From NCBI RefSeq assembly GCF_050320075.1, contig NZ_CP190018.1: a stretch of 64,000 nucleotides of DNA, one strand, 5' to 3'. The position numbers and the translations under genes were made by a program. Origin of the DNA: Escherichia coli. Lineage in GTDB: Bacteria > Pseudomonadota > Gammaproteobacteria > Enterobacterales > Enterobacteriaceae. How positions within the stretch are numbered: the first letter of the stretch is position 1; each line of letters begins with the position of its first letter. Shown here one piece after another: positions 21,223 through 29,043 of this stretch. The notes under the pieces were generated by a model. The model was not told the origin of the DNA and searched no databases. It worked only from the letters and a program-made list of their open reading frames with translations.

Positions 21223-21485
21223 GCGTCGTACCCCCGTTTGCGTCCGGCAATGCGCCCGGCCATCCATGCGGTGACTTCAGAGTGCAGCCAGGCCACATTT
21301 TTACCGCCAAGACTCACCTGCGGCGGAAATTCCCCTTTACGGATGAGTTCATAGATGGTCGAGCGTGACAGGCCGCACAGGTGCATCACTTCCGGCAGAC
21401 GTAAAAAACGCTCCTGCGTGATGTCCGGCAGCGGCATCAGTGGCGTCACAGGGGCGGGAGACGGGGAAGAAAAAACAGCTTGCAT
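21219..21485 (-). CDS. AlpA/Vis-family small DNA-binding regulator (excision/integration control)
   Basis: 88-aa ORF; HTH signature [48 protein letters not shown]; true start could be an internal Met. Confidence 0.75.
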
Positions 21486-21764
21486 CGGGCTACCTCGTTA
21501 ATGTCCATACAGCACCGGATAAGTCCGTCCGGCTTCGGGTAGCGCTTTATTTTGTGAATATTTTCAGCAGACGCAACAGGGGGGATTTGTTCCGGCAGTC
21601 TTACAATGGCTGTGTATTTTTTGTTCATCTCCACTTAAAGTCATTTAAAGCCACTTAAAGCAATTCGTAATTTTTATAGTGAAATACAAATCGTTTTTTC
21701 TTATTCATTCCCGGCGAATTAATAAAAACAAACAGTAATAAACAGCACAAAAAGCCCATCAACG

Positions 21765-21868
21765 GGTGAACAGTGGTGAACAGACGGTGAACAGTCATTA
21801 CTGCGATTGTTCACCCTTTAACTTACTGTATTACTTATCTTTTTTATTAAGGTGAACAGAGGTGAACA
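21765..21868. promoter_or_regulatory. cluster of six P4 type-I iterons, crr- or ori-like
   Basis: GGTGAACA at 21765, 21775, 21786, 21851 and 21861 (10-11 bp phasing) plus inverted TGTTCACC at 21808-21815; between the vis-like gene and sid. Confidence 0.65.
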
Positions 21869-22038
21869 GTAAAATATAAAAAAAACAAACAGTAAGCCGG
21901 TTTTTCCTGCGACCTTTTCCTGGCTTGCCGGTCTGAGGATGAGTCTCCTGTGTCAGGGCTGGCACATCTGCAATGCGTCGTGTTGTTGTCCGGTGTACGT
22001 CACAATTTTCTTAACCTGAAGTGACGAGGAGCCGGAAA

Positions 22039-22773
22039 ATGTCTGACAACACCATCCCTGAATATCTGCAACCCGCGCTGGCACAACTGGAAAAGGCCAG
22101 AGCCGCCCATCTTGAGAACGCCCGCCTGATGGATGAGACCGTCACGGCCATTGAACGGGCAGAACAGGAAAAAAATGCGCTGGCGCAGGCCGACGGAAAC
22201 GACGCTGACGACTGGCGCACGGCCTTTCGTGCAGCCGGTGGTGTCCTGAGCGACGAGCTGAAACAGCGCCACATTGAGCGCGTGGCACGCCGGGAGCTGG
22301 TACAGGAATATGACAATCTGGCCGTGGTGCTGAATTTTGAACGTGAACGCCTGAAAGGGGCGTGTGACAGCACGGCCACCGCCTACCGGAAGGCACATCA
22401 TCACCTGCTGAGTCTGTATGCAGAGCATGAGCTGGAACACGCCCTGAATGAAACCTGTGAGGCGCTTGTCCGGGCAATGCATCTGAGCATCCAGGTACAG
22501 GAAAATCCGCTCGCCAACACCACCGGCCATCAGGGCTACGTCGCGCCGGAAAAGGCTGTCATGCAGCAGGTGAAATCATCGCTGGAGCAGAAAATTAAAC
22601 AGATGCAAATCAGCCTCACCGGCGAGCCGGTTCTCCGGCTGACCGGACTGTCAGCGGCAACACTCCCGCACATGGATTATGAGGTGGCAGGCACACCGGC
22701 ACAGCGCAAGGTGTGGCAGGACAAAATAGACCAGCAGGGAGCAGAGCTTAAGGCCAGAGGACTGCTGTCATGA
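22039..22773 (+). CDS. sid: P4 Sid-like capsid size determination (external scaffold) protein
   Basis: 244 aa from ATG 22039 (MSDNTIPEYLQPALAQLEKARAAH...), SD GAGGAG 7 nt upstream; ORF track has a GTG start at 22021. Confidence 0.85.
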   Translation: MSDNTIPEYLQPALAQLEKARAAHLENARLMDETVTAIERAEQEKNALAQADGNDADDWRTAFRAAGGVLSDELKQRHIERVARRELVQEYDNLAVVLNFERERLKGACDSTATAYRKAHHHLLSLYAEHELEHALNETCEALVRAMHLSIQVQENPLANTTGHQGYVAPEKAVMQQVKSSLEQKIKQMQISLTGEPVLRLTGLSAATLPHMDYEVAGTPAQRKVWQDKIDQQGAELKARGLLS

Positions 22774-23270
22774 TTTACTGCCCGTCGTGTGGACATGTTG
22801 CTCACACCCGTCGCGCACATTTCATGGACGATGGCACCAAGATAATGATTGCACAGTGCCGGAATATTTATTGCTCTGCGACATTTGAAGCGAGTGAAAG
22901 CTTTTTCTCTGACAGTAAAGATTCAGGAATGGAATACATTTCAGGCAAACAGAGATACCGCGATTCACTGACGTCGGCCTCCGGCAGTATGAAACGCCCG
23001 AAAAGAATGCTTGTTACCGGATATTGTTGTCGGAGATGTAAAGGCCTTGCGCTGTCAAGAACATCGCGGCGTCTGTCTCAGGAAGTCACCGAGCGTTTTT
23101 ATGTGTGCACGGATCCGGGCTGTGGTCTGGTGTTTAAAACGCTTCAGACCATCACCCGCTTCATTGTCCGCCCGGTCACGCCGGACGAACTGGCAGAAAA
23201 CCTGCATGAAAAACAGGAACTGCCGCCAGTACGGTTAAAAACACAATCATATTCGCTGCGTCTGGAATGA
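22770..23270 (+). CDS. delta: P4 Delta-like late transcription activator (tandem Ogr-type zinc fingers)
   Basis: 166 aa; two Cys4 motifs CPSCGHVAH...CRNIYCSATFEASESF and CRRCKG...CTDPGCGLVF; start overlaps sid stop (ATGA). Confidence 0.85.
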   Translation: MIYCPSCGHVAHTRRAHFMDDGTKIMIAQCRNIYCSATFEASESFFSDSKDSGMEYISGKQRYRDSLTSASGSMKRPKRMLVTGYCCRRCKGLALSRTSRRLSQEVTERFYVCTDPGCGLVFKTLQTITRFIVRPVTPDELAENLHEKQELPPVRLKTQSYSLRLE

Positions 23271-23343
23271 GGGCTGCCGGTTAACACCGGCCGTCGCCAC
23301 ACACCGTATTTTTATTCTTCAGCATGATGAGAAAGAGATAACG

Positions 23344-23916
23344 ATGGAAAGCACAGCCTTACAGCAGGCCTTTGACACCTGTCAGAATAACAAAGCAGCA
23401 TGGCTGCAACGCAAAAATGAGCTGACTGCGGCCGAACAGGAATATCTGCGGCTTCTGTCAGGAGAAGGCAGAAACGTCAGTCACCTGGACGAATTACGCA
23501 ATATTATCGAAGTCAGAAAATGGCAGGTGAATCAGGCCGCCGGTCGTTATATTCGTTCGCATGAAGCCGTTCAGCACATCAGCATCCGCGACCGGCTGAA
23601 TGATTTTATGCAGCAGCACGGCACAGTACTGGCGGCCGCACTGGCACCGGAGCTGATGGGCTACAGTGAGCTGACGGCCATTGCCCGAAACTGTGCCATA
23701 CAGCGTGCCACAGATGCCCTGCGTGAAGCCCTTCTGTCCTGGCTTGCGAAGGGTGAAAAAATTAATTATTCCGTACAGGATAGCGACATTTTAACGACCA
23801 TCGGATTCAGGCCTGACGCGGCTTCGGTGGATGACAGCCGTGAAAAATTCACCCCTGCGCAGAACATGATTTTTTCGCGCAAAAGTGCGCAACTGGCATC
23901 ACATCAGTCTGTGTAA
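23344..23916 (+). CDS. psu: P4 Psu-like polarity suppression protein
   Basis: 190-aa ORF following delta, just upstream of cos; length and order as in P4. Confidence 0.85.
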   Translation: MESTALQQAFDTCQNNKAAWLQRKNELTAAEQEYLRLLSGEGRNVSHLDELRNIIEVRKWQVNQAAGRYIRSHEAVQHISIRDRLNDFMQQHGTVLAAALAPELMGYSELTAIARNCAIQRATDALREALLSWLAKGEKINYSVQDSDILTTIGFRPDAASVDDSREKFTPAQNMIFSRKSAQLASHQSV

Positions 23917-23952
23917 AACTCCCCGAAAATCCGCCCGTTTTTACTGAAAAAA

Positions 23953-23980
23953 GCCATGCATCGATAAGGTGCATGGCTTT
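23953..23980 (+). terminator. hairpin after psu (possible terminator)
   Basis: GCCATGCA tcgataagg TGCATGGC stem-loop followed by TTT. Confidence 0.4.
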
Positions 23981-24080
23981 GCATGCGTTTTCCTGCCTCA
24001 TTTTCTGCAAACCGTGCCATTCCCGGCGCGGTCTGAGCGTGTCAGTACAACTGCATTAAAACCGCCCCGCAAAGCGGGCG

Positions 24081-24099
24081 GGCGAGGCGGGGAAAGCAC
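24081..24099. other. cos site: 19-nt P2/P4-type cohesive-end sequence
   Basis: GGCGAGGCGGGGAAAGCAC matches the P2/186/P4 cohesive-end sequence as I recall it; lies just downstream of psu. Confidence 0.7.
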
Positions 24100-24349
24100 C
24101 GCGCGCTAAACCTGATGAATAAGGAATATTTTAAAAACATTTGTGGATATGAATATTTGGGTTGTAAATGAGTGTTTTTATCTGTTTTTATGTGCTGTGA
24201 AGCAATGTTTGAGTCGATATTTTTATAAAGCTCAATAAAAATTACATTATCATTGATAAGAATGGTTGTCGGATTAACACGTTTTTAAGCTATTTATATA
24301 TAATTAAACCTCGGCAAGGTTGCTGAGGTTTAATCGATTGGTTAATTAT

Positions 24350-27076
24350 TTAGTTGATTAGGTGTGACTCAGTTGCAGAGTGACCTTTTTTTGTCCTAAC
24401 AAACTTGATAGCAAGTGTTTTTCCTCTAATGTAATTAGACCAGTTATATTTTTCTTCACCAAGGCAACTGTCCCTATGAATTAATATTTCTTTTCCATCA
24501 GAATCTCTGGCAAAAACAAATCCTTTTCCTAATGTAAGATCTGAATATATTTCTGCTATAGAATATCCATTATTTTTCCATGTGATTTGTTCGAATTCGG
24601 CAATTGTTTTAGATGAGCTAAAAGCACTCCATTTGGGGGAGGTGAATGGGTTGTTTGGTATTTTTGTTGCTCTCATTGTTGAAATGATATTAACTACTTC
24701 TTTACTTGATATCTTAAAATCTTTAGAGAACTTTGTAATGTCGGCAAGATTGCTTTCAGCAAAATCAATTACTTTTATAATGAATTGTTGAGATAGTTTA
24801 TCAATGTTGTTTTTGATCGTGTCACAAAAAAGATTTAAAGATTTAATAGCTTCGTCAGAAAGTCGATCGCTGATGTTTTCTTTTTCAAATATAAATTCCA
24901 ATATGTCGATAACTTCAGATATGTTTTTTTCTACAGACTCAGGGTTAATGTCGAAGTTATTTTCACAAGAACGCTTTAATGCGGCGACTCTAAAGTAAGC
25001 TTGCTCTTGAGGTGAATGTGAATCTTTCCATTTTTCAGTGTATTCAAGAATGTCTGGGTATTCTTTACCATAAAGATGAACACCTAAATACTCTCGCATT
25101 ATTATAGAAGACAGTACTTCGCCTGAATGCTCAACTCTGTCGAATCCAGAATCAATCAATTCCTGAGATACTTTTTGAGCCTCTATAAAATCACCAATAT
25201 CTTTATAGATATACATCAGAGTTAAGTTGTTTAGTGGATTTTCAGACTCTATGCCTATTGCTGACTTTATACAAGAAATAGCACCTAAATTATCACCCTG
25301 CTTATGTAGTATTCTGGCATATGTTCGCATAAATAGAGGATTTTTTTGATATATTTGAGCGAGTGTTTTAAAATCCTCATAAATAACATTTAATTTATCT
25401 TTGTTAACGCTTTTGTAGCCTAAAATTTTATTTGCTCTGTTAACAGCTATTTGCAAGGAGTCAGGGCTATTATTAGGGATGAATCGATAATCAAACCGAT
25501 CTATTTCTTTATCTTGTTGGAATTTTTGTAAGTGCAATATTTCAGTTCGTTGTTTTCTTGCTTTTTCAGCAATAATGTTTCTGACGGTGTTATTTCTTGG
25601 TGATGTGATTAATAGTTCTTTGATTGATTCACTTAAAGAAAACTCTTCTTCTCCCGTATTAGATGTTTTCCGGGATACTAAAGATGTGTTCAATATTTCT
25701 TTAATCGCTTTTGCTATTGAGTCGGGATCTGAATCTAAGAAATGAGTTAAAAATGATCTTGATGATGCTCCGGTGACAAACAAGCATTCAAGAATAGATA
25801 TTGCATCGTTACTTAAAACATCTAATAGATTATTAAATGAAAATGCAGCGATATCTTTTTTGGATTTTTCTATTGAGTCAGGTAAAGCCATTCCATTATA
25901 AATGGAATCTATTGTAAGCCTTATTGCTAAGGGGTTAAAATGAGTCACTTCAGTAATTCTCGTGAGTTCTTCTGGGGTTAAGTTTATTATCCCTCGTTTA
26001 TCTGAATATGATTTGGCTAGATGGAAAGCCACACCAGATTGCAATTCCTTAAGTGAAATTGGGTAAGCTCCGTCAACCATTATTCGACTAGTGACTACCA
26101 CTTTAAAATTCGAAGGAAGAGTATACTGGAAACGAATGAACTCATCAGGACCATCTCTTAATAAAGTTTCGAGATTATCGATACATAGGAGAGTGCTTTC
26201 TATATCTTGGTCGTTTATAATTTCTGAATATAGATCATCATAGTTTTCTATCTCTTCATCAGGATTAAAAAACTCCACTATTTCTTTTTTTATTTCAGAA
26301 ATGGTGTCAATGTTTTTTAACTCAGAAATACCATCAGCAGTGAGATGATGTTTCTTTAATGTTAAATAGCAAATGTTTTTGAATTTCTCATTGGCTTTTG
26401 GTGAGATGCTCAATTCTTTTAAGAAATCTAAAATTAAAGCGGTTTTTCCTACGCCTCCAGGAGCTACAACCGCAATGAATGGAGTTCGATCGTTATTTAT
26501 TGCTGATAATAACTCTTTCTTTTCACCTTTACGGCCTATAAGGCTGGTAATGTCGTGATCAAATTTATCAGGCAGGTTGTTATTAATTTCCCAGCTAATA
26601 GTAGAAAACCATTCTTCTGGAGGTGCTTTTAATTGACCAGTAGATGCGGAATAATAAGCATCCTTCACACTTTTTAAACCAAGTACTTCTATATATGGAT
26701 GTGAGGCTATAGCTGCAGCGCAATGCCAGTAATGCTCATGGAATGGTCGGGTTGGATGACTAATTTGATTTCTTATAAAAAATAAATCAACAGCTGTACA
26801 GAACTCTTTCAGTTCTGACAGTTTATCATAGTCAGATGTACCCTTAGCTAATTGCAGGGCATAATTGAAAATTTCACCGATATAACTTGCTTGGATAAGA
26901 GTTTGCGTATTGAAAACGGGACCTCTCCCACGCTCCAGTTCTAGTTTAGAACGAGGTTCGAAATGTTCGCTTAACCTACTTTTACCTCCTGCATCCTCAC
27001 TAACAACATACGCCGCCAATGCTTTTTCTAAGGCATAAACTATCATACTAGTTTTCGTATCAAGATATTCAGACAT
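24350..27076 (-). CDS. STAND/NB-ARC-type P-loop NTPase with N-terminal Rx4H domain, helical repeats and C-terminal cold-shock-like OB-fold segment; candidate anti-phage defence cargo
   Basis: 908-aa ORF with AAGGA SD 6 nt upstream; Walker A IAVVAPGGVGKT (nt 26441-26458), Walker B TLLCIDNLE, sensor-I-like KVVVTSR, GLPL-like HFNPLAI; AT-rich; sits between cos/psu and int. Confidence 0.85.
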   Translation of the reverse strand: MSEYLDTKTSMIVYALEKALAAYVVSEDAGGKSRLSEHFEPRSKLELERGRGPVFNTQTLIQASYIGEIFNYALQLAKGTSDYDKLSELKEFCTAVDLFFIRNQISHPTRPFHEHYWHCAAAIASHPYIEVLGLKSVKDAYYSASTGQLKAPPEEWFSTISWEINNNLPDKFDHDITSLIGRKGEKKELLSAINNDRTPFIAVVAPGGVGKTALILDFLKELSISPKANEKFKNICYLTLKKHHLTADGISELKNIDTISEIKKEIVEFFNPDEEIENYDDLYSEIINDQDIESTLLCIDNLETLLRDGPDEFIRFQYTLPSNFKVVVTSRIMVDGAYPISLKELQSGVAFHLAKSYSDKRGIINLTPEELTRITEVTHFNPLAIRLTIDSIYNGMALPDSIEKSKKDIAAFSFNNLLDVLSNDAISILECLFVTGASSRSFLTHFLDSDPDSIAKAIKEILNTSLVSRKTSNTGEEEFSLSESIKELLITSPRNNTVRNIIAEKARKQRTEILHLQKFQQDKEIDRFDYRFIPNNSPDSLQIAVNRANKILGYKSVNKDKLNVIYEDFKTLAQIYQKNPLFMRTYARILHKQGDNLGAISCIKSAIGIESENPLNNLTLMYIYKDIGDFIEAQKVSQELIDSGFDRVEHSGEVLSSIIMREYLGVHLYGKEYPDILEYTEKWKDSHSPQEQAYFRVAALKRSCENNFDINPESVEKNISEVIDILEFIFEKENISDRLSDEAIKSLNLFCDTIKNNIDKLSQQFIIKVIDFAESNLADITKFSKDFKISSKEVVNIISTMRATKIPNNPFTSPKWSAFSSSKTIAEFEQITWKNNGYSIAEIYSDLTLGKGFVFARDSDGKEILIHRDSCLGEEKYNWSNYIRGKTLAIKFVRTKKGHSATESHLIN

Positions 27077-27094
27077 ATATGATCCTTGTTCAAA

Positions 27095-28282
27095 TTAAAG
27101 AGTGGTTTGCAATCCCCACCAATTCATTAACTCTATACGTTGTTCTAAATAGGTACTTCTATTGTAAGCTTTTCGAACCTCATTCCTCTCGGAATGCGCC
27201 AATGCTGCTTCAATAACATCAGGATTAAATTCTGCTTCGTTCATTGCCGTACTGGCAATTGATCTTAGTCCATGGGCCACTAACTTACCGCCATAACCTA
27301 TTCTCTTCAAGGCAGCGTTTGCCGTCTGACTGTTCATCGGCTGTTTTGGATCGTTTCTGCTCGGGAAAATATGTTCACGGTGACCACTGATAGGCTTCAT
27401 TACTTCCAAAATACCTAAAGCCTGAGGTGACAAAGGGACAATGTGTTCACGTTTAGCCTTCATTCGTTCGGCGGGAATCGTCCAGAGTTTGGCCTCGAGA
27501 TCGATCTCGACCCACCGAGCACCAGAAGCCTCAGAAGGGCGCACTAGGGTCAGGAGCTGCCACTCGATAAGACAGCGAGTCGGAACAGACAGATTCGACA
27601 TTACCAGAGAACGCATCAGCTTAGGTAATTCTTCGGGTCGTAGCGTGGGCATATTCTGCTTTTTGGGTTTCTCAAATGCCATTCCAACACCTGATGCTGG
27701 ATTTGCATCAATTAGACCAGTGTTTACGGCATAAATCATTATCTCGTTAATGCGCTGTACCAGACGACGTACCGTCTCTAGCGCGCCACGTGCTTTGATT
27801 GGTTCGAGGGTTTCAACAAGTGTTCGGGCTTTGATTTGCTGAACAGGGAGCTCACCGATGGCAGGTAATACATCTTTTTCCAGGGAACGCCAAATGTCTT
27901 TCGCGTAATCAGGGGTAACGCTTTTGCTTTTTATCTGGAACCAGTTGGTCGCAACAGTCGAAAAAATACTGTCTAGAGCTATCTGTTGTTGTTCTTCGAT
28001 AAATTCAGCTTGAACTTGTGGGTCTATACCATTAGCCAACAAAGCAAGGTAATCCGCTCTTAACCGTCGAGCATCAGCAAGTGAAAGGGCGGGGAAAGCA
28101 CCAAGCCCCATCATTGTCCGCTGTTTTGTTGCTGGACGTTGATAACGGAAACGCCACAACTTCTTACCGTTCGTTTTAACGAGCAGAAAAAGGCCATCGC
28201 CATCATGTAACGTTAGATCCTTTTCTAACGCTTTAGCGCGCAGAACTTCGGTGTTGGTCAGGGGGCGTGTTGTTCTTGCCAC
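27095..28282 (-). CDS. int: tyrosine site-specific integrase (P4/CP4-57 IntA type), ssrA-specific
   Basis: 395-aa ORF with GTG start; catalytic motifs AHGLRSIA and KAYNRSTYLE; next to the ssrA 3' end. Confidence 0.9.
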   Translation of the reverse strand: MARTTRPLTNTEVLRAKALEKDLTLHDGDGLFLLVKTNGKKLWRFRYQRPATKQRTMMGLGAFPALSLADARRLRADYLALLANGIDPQVQAEFIEEQQQIALDSIFSTVATNWFQIKSKSVTPDYAKDIWRSLEKDVLPAIGELPVQQIKARTLVETLEPIKARGALETVRRLVQRINEIMIYAVNTGLIDANPASGVGMAFEKPKKQNMPTLRPEELPKLMRSLVMSNLSVPTRCLIEWQLLTLVRPSEASGARWVEIDLEAKLWTIPAERMKAKREHIVPLSPQALGILEVMKPISGHREHIFPSRNDPKQPMNSQTANAALKRIGYGGKLVAHGLRSIASTAMNEAEFNPDVIEAALAHSERNEVRKAYNRSTYLEQRIELMNWWGLQTTL

Positions 28283-28304
28283 TGTGGCCGCTCCTTCATG
28301 AATT

Positions 28305-28352
28305 GGTATACGTGTTTAGGTATACATCCTACCGTATACCTAAACGTATACC
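28305..28352. promoter_or_regulatory. four GTATACC/GGTATAC repeats in an imperfect inverted arrangement upstream of int (candidate arm-type sites / int promoter region)
   Basis: GGTATAC at 28305 and 28319, GTATACC at 28334 and 28346. Confidence 0.45.
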
Positions 28353-28466
28353 AATAATCACTGGATTTAGCTGGATATCCTCGGACAATGGTAGACACAA
28401 AAAAGCCCGCAGAGCTTGTGCCATGCGGGCTTTCAGGATTTCTCCGGACGTATCCGGAAGAGCAAG

Positions 28467-28481
28467 TGGTGGAGCTGGCGG
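28467..28481. repeat. attL-side direct repeat (ssrA 3' terminus)
   Basis: TGGTGGAGCTGGCGG, identical to 16764-16778. Confidence 0.75.
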
Positions 28482-28829
28482 GAGTTGAACCCGCGTCCGA
28501 AATTCCTACGTCCTCGGTACTACATGCTTAGTCAGTCTTTACATTCGCTTGCCAGCTGCGGACGGACACGCCACTAACAAACTAGCCTGATTAAGTTTTA
28601 ACGCTTCAACCCCAGGCAGGGCTTCCACGCGATCTCTTTTGGGTTTGACCTCTCTTGATCCCCGTCCTAAGAGCGGAGGCTAGGGAGAGAGGGCTCTAAG
28701 CAGGTTATTAAGCTGCTAAAGCGTAGTTTTCGTCGTTTGCGACTATTTTTTGCGGCTTTTTACGAGGCCAACCGCCCCTCGGCATGCACCTTGGGTTTCG
28801 CAAATCCCGTCGAATCCAGAATCAGCCCC
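28467..28829 (-). ncRNA. ssrA: tmRNA (SsrA), 363 nt
   Basis: Reverse complement reads GGGGCTGATTCTGGATTCGACGGGATTTGCGAAACCCAAGGTGCATGCC...GGTTCAACTCCCGCCAGCTCCACCA. Confidence 0.95.
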
Positions 28830-29043
28830 AATGTGTAACGGCAAGTATACCAGATTTATGAGCGCCATGACCAGCCTCAATGGCGTTATCGTTAAAGATT
28901 TAGCACCCATGTAGCCTGATTTTTATTCGATTAAGCAATGGGATGGCAACATTTGTGTCGGATGTGATAGCCAATAAGATGTTCATTCGCGCCGCCGGAG
29001 AGGGAGGCGCGGTGAGGAACTGGTCAATAATTGGAGTGCAGGT

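What the first reader, a model, noticed from the sequence alone, without database searches (positions are those of the whole stretch)
27077..27094. Cargo gene starts 18 bp after the integrase stop in the same orientation
The int stop (TAA at 27095-27097) and the cargo ATG (27074-27076) are separated by only 18 bp containing AAGGA. There is no room for an independent promoter in the gap, so expression probably comes from read-through from int or from a promoter inside the int 3' end.
Basis: inference. Interest (0 to 1): 0.3.

Follow-up and report, generated by a model that had tools for sequence, protein, structure and literature searches.

The report
Promoterless defence gene behind satellite integrase
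A large, uncharacterised immune-type gene sits 18 bases after the integrase gene of a P4-like phage satellite in E. coli and is most likely transcribed together with it, an ordinary operon layout that recurs in about half of the cargo families surveyed in related satellites.

Summary
On the minus strand, int (27095-28282) ends in TAA at 27095-27097. Eighteen bases follow (tttgaacAAGGAtcatat), then the ATG (27074-27076) of a 908-aa ORF.

The element is an 11.7-kb P4-like satellite prophage in the 3' end of ssrA. The "cargo" fills the known psu-int defence hotspot. It is a predicted HEPN / NB-ARC STAND NTPase / TPR / beta-barrel protein, an untested Avs-like candidate.

Across 85 related loci (48 first-cargo families), int homology stops at ...NWWG, five codons before the stop here, so the variable cassette starts inside int.
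- 24 families are co-oriented with int. 18 of them have junctions of -20 to +46 bp, and none has a hairpin after the int stop.
- 24 families are convergent, and 10 of these have a strong hairpin there (Fisher p=0.0006).

Orthologues at 59-60% identity in Pantoea and Yersinia keep the same junction (-16 and +20 bp).

No promoter-like site in the int 3' end exceeds chance. A conserved candidate Pint lies upstream of int, embedded in inverted repeats.

The best explanation is an int-cargo operon. It is inferred, not shown: no transcript data exist. This is an ordinary arrangement in a known hotspot, with one practical consequence for cloning such genes with "native promoters".

The parts
28467..28829 (-). 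ssrA (tmRNA) gene. Its last 23 nt (28467-28489) form the attL core.
   Evidence: ARAGORN. Rfam RF00023, 292.8 bits. Imperfect direct repeat with 16764-16786.
28402..28433 (-). Intrinsic-terminator hairpin after ssrA (AAAGCCCGCA...TGCGGGCTTT followed by a T run). It lies inside the element, between ssrA and int.
   Evidence: Terminator scan. Inverted repeat I5, 10-bp perfect arms. Conserved in 63 unique upstream sequences.
28302..28355 (-). Nested inverted repeats carrying four GGTATAC motifs. Inferred to be Int arm-type sites. They overlap the candidate int promoter TTGGTA-17-TAGGAT (-35 at 28354-28349, -10 at 28331-28326, 43 nt before the GTG).
   Evidence: Repeats I3, I4 and I6. PWM score 8.3, the best site upstream of int. 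Most columns are at least 90% conserved across 63 sequences. The layout parallels the attP arm repeats next to the P4 int start.
27095..28282 (-). int, a P4-type tyrosine integrase of 395 aa. The family-conserved part ends at G390 (codon 27115-27113). The tail LQTTL (27112-27098) belongs to the variable region.
   Evidence: Pfam. NCBIfam match covers residues 1-390 only. tblastn matches in 80 loci end at residues 389-395, and the C-terminal tails are unrelated. Alignment A1.
27077..27094 (-). The 18-bp int-cargo spacer. It contains the Shine-Dalgarno AAGGA (27087-27083). It has no room for a promoter and holds no hairpin.
   Evidence: Sequence. Fold of the 70 nt after the int stop: MFE -7.9, z +0.44.
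24350..27076 (-). Cargo gene of 908 aa. N-terminal HEPN-like domain (1-170; R102, N103 and H107 invariant). NB-ARC/STAND NTPase (about 180-500; Walker A GGVGKT, Walker B D300). TPR-like helical repeats (about 540-835). C-terminal five-stranded beta domain (839-907).
24302..24335 (-). Strong hairpin 14 nt after the cargo stop. Proposed end of the int-cargo transcription unit.
   Evidence: RNA fold MFE -16.6 kcal/mol, z -6.1, 0 of 200 shuffles as stable.
24081..24099 (+). P2/P4 cos site, an exact 19-mer, marking the other edge of the hotspot cassette (about 24107-27112).
   Evidence: Exact match; 0.02 matches expected. Rousset 2022 states the hotspot is adjacent to cos.
22021..23916 (+). sid-like (22021-22773), delta (22770-23270) and psu (23344-23916): the P4 late operon, convergent with the cargo.
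   Evidence: ORFs. RefSeq annotation of the identical genome and of relatives. Same order as in P4 NC_001609.
20875..21160 (-). P4 immunity RNA region: C4 antisense RNA (20875-20962), isrK (21070-21147) and c4-a1b1 (21108-21160).
   Evidence: Rfam gathering-level matches.
16764..16786 (+). attR, an imperfect copy of the ssrA 3' end. The element spans 16764-28489 (11.7 kb).
   Evidence: Direct repeat D3, 87% identical. P4 is 11,624 bp.

Best explanation
The 18-bp spacer is the intercistronic junction of a two-gene operon, int-cargo, in an 11.7-kb P4-like satellite prophage integrated in ssrA. The cargo is a promoterless, single-gene candidate anti-phage cassette (HEPN-STAND-TPR, Avs-like) occupying the known psu-int hotspot. 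The variable cassette begins inside int, just after the conserved ...LMNWWG codons, so it brings its own int tail, stop codon, ribosome-binding site and gene, but no promoter. Transcription starts upstream of int. The most likely source is a sigma-70 promoter embedded in inverted repeats that would be Int arm-type sites, and which is therefore probably autorepressed as in P4. A minor contribution from read-through of the ssrA terminator is possible. Transcription then runs through int and the cargo without interruption and ends at the hairpin after the cargo stop. The cargo is translated from its own AAGGA site, possibly helped by ribosomes finishing int 18 nt upstream. Shown here: the anatomy, the position of the cassette boundary, the absence of a terminator, and the conservation of the junction. 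Inferred: the promoter identity, co-transcription itself, and the defence function.
For: (1) Anatomy: same strand, 18-bp gap, Shine-Dalgarno site six bases before the ATG. (2) The element is a P4-like satellite with int, cos, psu, delta, sid, C4 RNA, alpha primase and att repeats, and the cargo lies in the psu-int hotspot described by Rousset 2022. This very protein, WP_089620504, is listed there as an untested 'hypothetical'. (3) Int homology ends at residue 390 in 80 IMG/VR loci, in four of the five annotated E. coli relatives and in NCBIfam PRK09692, and the tails after it are unrelated. (4) Of 48 first-cargo families, 24 are co-oriented, and 18 of those have junctions of -20 to +46 bp, including ATGA-type overlaps. 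(5) None of the 24 co-oriented families has a strong hairpin in the 70 nt after the int stop, against 10 of 24 convergent families (Fisher p=0.0006; Mann-Whitney p=0.003). (6) Orthologous cargo in Pantoea (16-bp overlap) and Yersinia (20-bp gap) keeps the junction, although the cargo is 59-60% and int 75-80% identical. The junction sequence itself is not conserved apart from the Shine-Dalgarno site. (7) The candidate Pint plus inverted repeats are at least 90% conserved in most columns over 63 sequences. P4 Pint is repressed by Int and Vis according to Piazzolla 2006, as cited in PMC2951348 and PMC7286903. (8) A strong hairpin follows the cargo. (9) Circumstantial: in Rousset 2022 Table S2, co-oriented systems were cloned with only about 95-230 nt upstream. 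SIR2, NOD-1 and NOD-2 gave no activity. PARIS-1 was inactive natively but active from Ptet.
Against: No RNA data were available, so co-transcription is inferred. If Pint is tightly autorepressed, as in P4 and in the PAI I536 int-yfp operon, it might give too little expression, or too uneven an expression, for a constitutive defence gene. One co-oriented system, Hydrolase+3TM, was active with only about 95 nt of int 3' end plus its own gap of roughly 60 nt, so promoters close to the junction can exist. The int 3' end and the cargo are AT-rich (37-44% and about 32% GC), a composition in which weak or cryptic promoters are common and which consensus scans detect poorly. The negative phage assays in Rousset's Table S2 may simply reflect the phage panel used.
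Confidence: 0.6

Rival explanations
1. The cargo is driven mainly by a promoter inside the 3' coding part of int. Int and cargo would then be separate but overlapping transcription units.
For: Promoter-like sites exist in the window: TTGCCA-18-CAGAAT (27258-27229, score 8.0) and TTGGTG-17-TTTAAT (-35 in the WWG codons, -10 over the int stop, score 7.6). A recurrent ATAAAA-17-TAYAAT site sits 66-90 nt before the int stop in many relatives. Hydrolase+3TM was active with only about 95 nt of int sequence upstream. An autorepressed Pint may be too weak.
Against: 25% of random 368-nt windows of this sequence contain a site as good as the best one here. Scores do not differ between co-oriented and convergent loci (Mann-Whitney p=0.20). 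The recurrent TAYAAT is explained by the Tyr-Asn codons of the conserved AYNR motif, whose Tyr I take to be the catalytic tyrosine of the recombinase (from general knowledge of tyrosine recombinases; not tested here). In this window its -35 is poor (score 3.4). The TTGGTG/TTTAAT site would give a leader of about 10 nt that truncates the Shine-Dalgarno site, and it is absent in Pantoea and Yersinia. SIR2, NOD-1 and NOD-2, cloned with about 95-130 nt of int, were inactive, and PARIS-1 needed Ptet.
Confidence: 0.27
2. In the integrated state, transcription comes mainly from the very strong ssrA promoter reading through the ssrA terminator into int and the cargo. This would resemble ICEKp1, which uses the adjacent tRNA promoter.
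For: ssrA, int and the cargo are all co-oriented, and only 184 bp separate ssrA from int. State-dependent use of a flanking tRNA promoter for int is documented for ICEKp1, ICEclc and ICEEc1.
Against: A 10-bp GC-rich hairpin with a T run lies between ssrA and int, and it is conserved in 63 sequences. That looks like insulation rather than terminator displacement.
Confidence: 0.08
3. The cargo is essentially silent (for example xenogeneically silenced or decaying), and the tight junction is only a by-product of packaging-size pressure on an 11.7-kb satellite.
For: Convergent cassettes also abut int: in 19 of 24 families the 3' end lies within 75 bp of the int stop, so compaction is general. The cargo is about 32% GC.
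Against: The ORF is intact at 908 aa, with invariant catalytic and Walker residues. Full-length orthologues are kept at 60% identity in the same position in other genera. A good Shine-Dalgarno site is retained in all three genera.
Confidence: 0.04
4. Int and the cargo are joined into a fusion protein by read-through of the TAA stop. The 18-nt gap is in frame and has no stop codon (FEQGSY).
For: The gap is six sense codons in the int frame.
Against: The Pantoea (-16) and Yersinia (+20) junctions are out of frame. Junction lengths in other cassettes take all phases. TAA is an efficient stop codon (general knowledge). An in-frame, stop-free six-codon gap is expected in about a quarter of cases by chance.
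Confidence: 0.01

Closest known systems
P4 satellite psu-int defence hotspot (Rousset et al. 2022, PMC9122126); canonical P4 int-cII-beta-gop
   Same: Same element type and same locus, between int and cos/psu. Variable single- or multi-gene anti-phage cargo occurs in either orientation. In P4 itself, cII follows int on the same strand and ends at a rho-independent terminator. This cargo protein is in their Table S1.
   Different: In P4 the int-cII gap is 66 bp and contains a perfect TATAAT, so an own promoter is possible. Here the gap is 18 bp. The papers read here do not describe the cassette boundary inside the int codons, or any dependence on int transcription.
Avs / bacterial NLR-like STAND defence proteins, including the SAMD9-like Avs5/6/9 group (Gao 2022; Legrand 2025, PMC12680541)
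   Same: Single polypeptide with an N-terminal effector domain, a central STAND NTPase and C-terminal helical repeats. The best PDB fold match is human SAMD9 (E 3e-8), and the AVAST5 filament is also hit. A homologue lies next to McrBC.
   Different: There is no convincing PADLOC match. The effector is HEPN-like, not SIR2, PNP or AlbA_2. Sequence identity to solved STAND proteins is about 10%. Defence activity is untested.
Integron cassette expression from Pc inside intI
   Same: Swappable, mostly promoterless cassettes placed next to a tyrosine-recombinase gene and expressed from a fixed promoter belonging to the platform.
   Different: From general knowledge: integron Pc is divergent from intI, cassettes carry attC sites, and IntI inserts them. 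Here there is no attC. The cargo is downstream of and co-oriented with a P4-type int. Exchange is presumably by homologous recombination in the flanking int and cos/psu sequences.
State-dependent int transcription in ICEKp1 (PMC13023037) and autorepressed P4-type int promoters (P4 Pint; PAI I536 intI, PMC7286903)
   Same: A P4-type integrase lies immediately downstream of a co-oriented tRNA or tmRNA gene. Repeats that would be Int-binding sites overlap the candidate promoter.
   Different: Here a conserved strong terminator separates ssrA from int. No experiment has been done on this promoter.
Prophage 'morons' (autonomous promoter-gene-terminator units)
   Same: AT-rich accessory gene inserted between conserved phage genes and followed by a hairpin.
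   Different: A moron carries its own promoter (general knowledge). This cargo has no room for one.

Membership tests
Operon (co-transcribed gene pair) | Same strand and a short intergenic distance | tested here: met
   Both genes on the minus strand, 18-bp gap.
Operon (co-transcribed gene pair) | No terminator and no promoter between the genes | tested here: met
   No hairpin after the int stop (z +0.44). No terminator-like site between the genes. Eighteen base pairs cannot hold a -35/-10 promoter.
Operon (co-transcribed gene pair) | Adjacency conserved across divergent genomes | tested here: met
   E. coli +18, Yersinia +20, Pantoea -16 bp, with the cargo at 59-60% identity.
Operon (co-transcribed gene pair) | A single mRNA spans both genes | not testable with these tools
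   No transcriptome data available.
P4-like phage satellite | Core genes int, psu, delta, sid and alpha primase-helicase, in P4 order | tested here: met
   RefSeq annotation of the identical locus compared with NC_001609.
P4-like phage satellite | P2/P4 cos site, C4/cI immunity RNA, size of about 11-12 kb between att repeats | tested here: met
   Exact cos 19-mer. Rfam C4, isrK and c4-a1b1. attL/attR 11.7 kb apart.
P4-like phage satellite | Mobilisation by a P2-like helper | not testable with these tools
   Needs an induction or transduction experiment.
P4 psu-int defence hotspot cargo | Located between int and cos/psu, and replaced by unrelated genes in sister elements | tested here: met
   SIR2 and various hypothetical genes occupy the same slot. 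48 first-gene families in 85 loci. Listed in Rousset Table S1.
P4 psu-int defence hotspot cargo | Confers phage resistance | not testable with these tools
   Not found among the systems tested in Rousset Table S2 (parts 1-3 of 4 read).
Avs (antiviral STAND) / NLR-like | Central STAND NTPase with Walker A and Walker B motifs | tested here: met
   NB-ARC in 31 of 38 homologues and AAA_16 in 36 of 38. Invariant G207, G208, G210, K211, T212 and D300. Fold matches to Apaf-1 and CED-4. The window protein itself is below the Pfam cut-offs.
Avs (antiviral STAND) / NLR-like | N-terminal effector domain | tested here: inconclusive
Avs (antiviral STAND) / NLR-like | C-terminal repeat sensor | tested here: met
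   TPR families in up to 13 of 38 homologues. Helical repeats at 540-835 in the model.
Avs (antiviral STAND) / NLR-like | Match to a named Avs model, or a demonstrated phage trigger | tested here: not met
   PADLOC gives only weak P-loop hits (PDC-S27 E 2.6e-4, mad8). No trigger is known.
Integron | IntI-type integrase, attI/attC sites, Pc promoter | tested here: not met
   The integrase is P4-type. No attC-like repeats were reported near the cassette in the direct-repeat scan. This is an analogy only.

The most novel reading that the evidence does not exclude
In P4-like satellites the integrase gene may serve as a fixed expression platform for swappable, promoterless defence cassettes. The recombination boundary sits in the last codons of int, so about half of the cassette families plug in as the second cistron of an Int-autoregulated operon. 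Defence-gene dosage would then be tied to integrase regulation and to the integrated or excised state of the satellite. A practical corollary follows: several hotspot genes scored inactive when cloned with a 'native promoter' (SIR2, NOD-1, NOD-2 in Rousset 2022) could be false negatives.
Probability: 0.35. Interest if true: 0.5.

Novelty: new member of a known kind. Interest (0 to 1): 0.33.

Why it matters
The junction is an ordinary operon-type spacing in an already described defence hotspot, so the finding as written is not surprising. Two things give it modest value.

First, the survey shows a general rule for this integrase family. The variable region starts inside int. Co-oriented cargo lacks both a promoter and an upstream terminator. 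Convergent cargo ends at a hairpin shared with int. Anyone cloning or testing such cargo therefore needs to supply a promoter or include int and its upstream region. Some published negative results may stem from this.

Second, the cargo itself is an uncharacterised, widely distributed family: more than 300 full-length homologues across Gammaproteobacteria and Bacteroidota. Its HEPN-STAND-TPR-beta-barrel architecture has human SAMD9 as its best PDB fold match, which makes it a reasonable candidate for a new Avs-type anti-phage sensor.

Tried and rejected
**Promoter in the gap or in the int 3' end.**
- The consensus scan and a PWM scan found nothing above background; 25% of random windows score as well.
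- Comparing co-oriented with convergent loci showed no enrichment (p=0.20).
- The recurrent TAYAAT is explained by the Tyr-Asn codons of the conserved AYNR motif.

**Conserved WWG codons (TTGGTG) as a shared -35 for cassette-borne -10 boxes.** This fits the window (TTGGTG-17-TTTAAT) but not SIR2, Pantoea or Yersinia. Rejected as a general mechanism.

**Low GC at the int 3' end as a sign that the cassette reaches deep into int.** Rejected. All family members have 37-44% GC in the last 300 nt, whatever the cargo, and homology continues to WWG.

**Int-cargo fusion by stop read-through.** The in-frame gap is not conserved.

**Identifying the cargo by sequence.**
- The Pfam, NCBIfam and PADLOC matches, all to the NTPase region, are weak or below cut-off.
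- The terminal domains scanned alone give no Pfam hit.
- PDB sequence searches gave nothing for the whole protein or for the N-terminal profile.

**Ghisotti 1990 on P4 cII transcription.** The paper could not be retrieved. Whether P4 cII has its own promoter is known to me only from memory of the abstract.

**The 16-nt exact repeat between the cargo (25139-25154) and ssrA (28809-28824).** I took this to be a chance match and did not pursue it.

Full report
**1. The observation**

Read on the minus strand, the sequence is ...AAT TGG TGG GGA TTG CAA ACC ACT CTT TAA (stop at 27097-27095), then tttgaacAAGGAtcatat (27094-27077), then ATG TCT GAA... (ATG at 27076-27074).

The ORF list gives int as 27095..28282 (395 aa, GTG start) and the downstream ORF as 24350..27076 (908 aa). 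RefSeq annotates the same two CDS in E. coli YZLc1-3, which is 100% identical over 24000-29000. AAGGA ends six bases before the ATG.

The start codon is corroborated by homologues of 59-60% identity that begin at the same residue. The finding's coordinates and description are therefore exact.

**2. What the locus is**

- A tmRNA gene (ssrA, 28467-28829, minus strand) lies 184 bp upstream of int on the same strand.
- A 23-nt imperfect copy of the ssrA 3' end recurs at 16764-16786, delimiting an 11.7-kb element.
- Between these repeats the identical RefSeq locus carries int, the 908-aa gene, psu, an ogr/Delta-like gene, a sid-like gene, an HTH regulator, an Icd-like gene, a DUF5375 gene and a primase-helicase. 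Apart from the variable slot next to int, this is the order found in satellite phage P4.
- An exact P2/P4 cos 19-mer sits at 24081-24099.
- Rfam finds the C4 antisense RNA, isrK and c4-a1b1 at 20875-21160.

This is a P4-like satellite prophage. The "cargo" occupies the psu-int hotspot, which Rousset et al. [quoted passage not shown] The cargo protein, WP_089620504, appears in their Table S1 as "hypothetical". I did not find it among the tested systems in the parts of Table S2 that I read (three of four). It is rare: 7 of 5,426 complete E. coli genomes carry the full region.

**3. Where the variable cassette begins**

Aligning the int 3' ends of this locus and four E. coli relatives with different cargo shows continuous homology up to ATGAATTGGTGGGG (...M N W W G). 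After that point the sequences are unrelated.

In 80 IMG/VR loci encoding the same integrase family (84-95% identity), tblastn matches stop at residues 389-395. The remaining C-terminal tails are 2-19 residues long and mostly unrelated. The NCBIfam model PRK09692 likewise matches residues 1-390 only.

The exchangeable cassette therefore starts inside int, five codons before its stop in this window (27112), and runs to about 24107 next to cos. It supplies the int tail, the stop codon, the spacer and the cargo. No cassette-borne promoter can lie upstream of a co-oriented cargo gene with such a junction.

**4. How general the tight junction is**

I took the first substantial ORF after int in 85 loci and clustered these ORFs into 48 families.

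| Class | Families | Junction |
|---|---|---|
| Co-oriented with int | 24 | 18 lie at -20 to +46 bp; six have no gap (five overlaps, one at 0 bp); most have an AAGGA-like Shine-Dalgarno site |
| Convergent with int | 24 | 19 have their 3' end within 75 bp of the int stop |

RefSeq annotation of four E. coli relatives shows the same picture: SIR2 at +27 bp, two hypothetical genes overlapping int by 4 bp, and one opposite-strand gene. The 18-bp gap is therefore typical, and tight packing is a property of the hotspot.

**5. Test for a terminator between int and the cargo**

I folded the 70 nt that start at the int stop codon in one representative per family.

| Class | Families with a strong hairpin (z <= -2.5) | Mean MFE (kcal/mol) |
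|---|---|---|
| Convergent | 10 of 24, many with perfect 10-14-bp stems | -11.35 |
| Co-oriented | 0 of 24 (minimum z -0.96) | -6.7 |

The difference is significant (Fisher p=0.0006; Mann-Whitney p=0.003).

In the window, the first strong hairpin on the minus strand after int comes after the cargo stop, at 24302-24335 (MFE -16.6, z -6.1). When the cargo is co-oriented, int transcripts have nothing to stop them before the end of the cargo.

**6. Conservation of the junction**

The closest homologues of the cargo are in Pantoea agglomerans and Yersinia canariae (59-60% identity, full length). Both lie in P4-like satellites next to smpB-ssrA, directly after a co-oriented int.

- Int is 80% and 75% identical to the window's int.
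- The junctions are -16 bp in Pantoea and +20 bp in Yersinia.
- In the alignment, only the Shine-Dalgarno site and the ATG are shared between WWG and the cargo.

The arrangement has persisted through substantial divergence without any conserved promoter-like motif in the junction.

**7. Promoter candidates**

*In the int 3' end.* The consensus scan finds one promoter-like site on the cargo strand in the last 350 nt of int: TTGCCA-18-CAGAAT at 27258-27229. The total number of sites in the region equals the shuffled expectation (14 against 13.2). A PWM scan gives 8.0 for that site and 7.6 for TTGGTG-17-TTTAAT, whose -10 overlaps the int stop. A quarter of random 368-nt windows contain an equal or better site.

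*Across families.* The best score in the last 300 nt of int does not differ between co-oriented and convergent classes (8.6 against 8.2, p=0.20). The recurrent ATAAAA-17-TAYAAT site coincides with the Tyr-Asn codons of the conserved AYNR motif and occurs in both classes. I take that Tyr to be the catalytic tyrosine, on general knowledge of tyrosine recombinases. An internal promoter is not supported, but it cannot be excluded.

*Upstream of int.*
- The ssrA gene is followed by a conserved terminator hairpin at 28402-28433.
- Next come nested inverted repeats carrying four GGTATAC motifs at 28302-28355.
- These overlap the best promoter-like site in the interval, TTGGTA-17-TAGGAT, 43 nt before the GTG.
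- This non-coding stretch is at least 90% conserved in most columns over 63 distinct sequences.
- The layout resembles P4, where attP arm repeats abut the int start.
- In P4, Int and Vis repress Pint (Piazzolla 2006, as cited).

**8. Circumstantial experimental evidence**

Rousset et al. cloned hotspot systems "with their native promoters". Their Table S2 shows how much upstream sequence the co-oriented systems received, and the primer tails indicate that these inserts faced away from Ptet.

| System | Cloned upstream sequence | Result |
|---|---|---|
| SIR2 (same cassette as L002, 27-nt gap) | about 95 nt of int 3' end | no activity |
| NOD-1 | about 125 nt of int 3' end | no activity |
| NOD-2 (same cassette as L008, 3-nt gap) | about 105 nt of int 3' end | no activity |
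| PARIS-1 | about 230 nt upstream of its start | inactive natively, active from Ptet |
| Hydrolase+3TM | about 95 nt of int 3' end plus its own gap of roughly 60 nt | active |

This pattern fits dependence on transcription from further upstream. The sample is small, and the negatives could equally reflect the phage panel.

**9. The cargo protein**

- *Sequence families.* Pfam gives sub-threshold AAA_16 and nSTAND1 hits for the window protein. Across 38 homologues, NB-ARC (31), AAA_16 (36) and TPR families are detected.
- *Distribution.* More than 300 full-length homologues of about 900-925 aa occur in Gammaproteobacteria, Bacteroidota and metagenomes.
- *Invariant residues.* Walker A G207, G208, G210, K211 and T212; D300; and R102, N103 and H107 in the N-terminal domain. 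The last three form an R-N-x3-H motif, which is the HEPN RNase signature (general knowledge).
- *Full-length model.* The AF2 model has pLDDT 84.5. It shows an all-helical N-terminal domain, an alpha/beta NTPase, long helical repeats and a C-terminal five-stranded beta domain.
- *Context.* SAMD9-like architecture in bacterial Avs5/6/9 has been described. A Klebsiella homologue lies beside McrBC.

I read the cargo as an Avs-like sensor with a HEPN RNase effector that would act by abortive infection after oligomerisation. This is inference. PADLOC has no model for it.

**10. Explanation and alternatives**

| Reading | Probability |
|---|---|
| int and cargo form one transcription unit starting upstream of int and ending at the hairpin after the cargo; cargo translated from its own AAGGA site | about 0.6 |
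| Main promoter inside the int 3' coding region | about 0.27 |
| Dominant read-through from ssrA | about 0.08 |
| Silent gene | about 0.04 |
| Stop-codon read-through fusion (the in-frame gap is not conserved) | about 0.01 |

The comparative data favour the first.

**11. Verdict**

It describes a routine operon junction inside an already known defence hotspot.

The new elements are modest:
- the cassette boundary lies within the last codons of int;
- co-oriented and convergent cassettes split evenly, with a clear terminator contrast;
- the junction is conserved across three genera;
- cloning with "native promoters" may miss the real promoter of co-oriented cargo;
- the cargo is an uncharacterised HEPN-STAND-TPR family.

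Noticed in passing
L004:4250-4500 and L007 (alignment A1, columns 600-720): Loci with a convergent cassette and a 250-bp 'gap' after int keep the same int tail (EFVHNRHLLMQAI) as the SIR2 loci. They also keep about 110 nt homologous to the 5' end of the SIR2 cassette, with the SIR2 ATG mutated. This looks like a scar of an earlier co-oriented cassette and suggests replacement by recombination inside the cassette.
   Followed up: partly
window:24350-27076 (-): The cargo is a widespread family of about 910 aa (more than 300 homologues in Gammaproteobacteria and Bacteroidota). It has an invariant R-N-x3-H motif in a HEPN-like N-terminal domain, an NB-ARC NTPase, TPR repeats and a C-terminal beta-barrel. 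Its best PDB fold match is human SAMD9. It is not recognised by PADLOC and is listed as 'hypothetical' in Rousset 2022 Table S1.
   Followed up: partly
Rousset 2022 Table S2 (PMC9122126, supplement 3); cassettes equal to L002 and L008: Co-oriented hotspot systems (SIR2, NOD-1, NOD-2, PARIS-1) were cloned with only about 95-230 nt upstream and, judging by the primer tails, facing away from Ptet. Three were scored inactive, and PARIS-1 worked only from Ptet. These could be expression failures rather than true negatives.
   Followed up: partly
window:28302-28355: Nested perfect inverted repeats (ATTGGTATACGT/ACGTATACCAAT and GTTTAGGTATAC/GTATACCTAAAC) lie directly upstream of int, overlap the best promoter-like site, and are highly conserved across 63 sequences. 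They are probably Int arm-type sites or an autoregulatory operator.
   Followed up: partly
window:20875-21160 (-): Rfam finds the C4 antisense RNA, isrK and c4-a1b1 targets. This is the P4-type RNA immunity system of the satellite.
   Followed up: no
window:8808-8883 (+): ARAGORN calls this a tRNA-Met (CAT). The near-identical RefSeq genome annotates a tRNA-Ile about 180 nt away once the coordinates are transferred. I did not resolve this offset, so the correspondence is unconfirmed, but it may be an ileX/ileY-type tRNA-Ile2. The genes between it and attR (ypjA adhesin, YpjCB, a recombinase pseudogene) look like remnants of an older island.
   Followed up: no
window:25139-25154 and 28809-28824: An exact 16-nt direct repeat (GTCGAATCCAGAATCA) is shared by the cargo coding region and the 5' part of ssrA. 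It is probably a chance match.
   Followed up: no
L092:2884-5001 and L094: A Klebsiella homologue of the cargo (35% identity) lies next to McrBC with about 2 kb upstream in which no gene was called. In another contig it follows a 275-aa integrase fragment and a 72-aa ORF, with a 22-bp gap.
   Followed up: no
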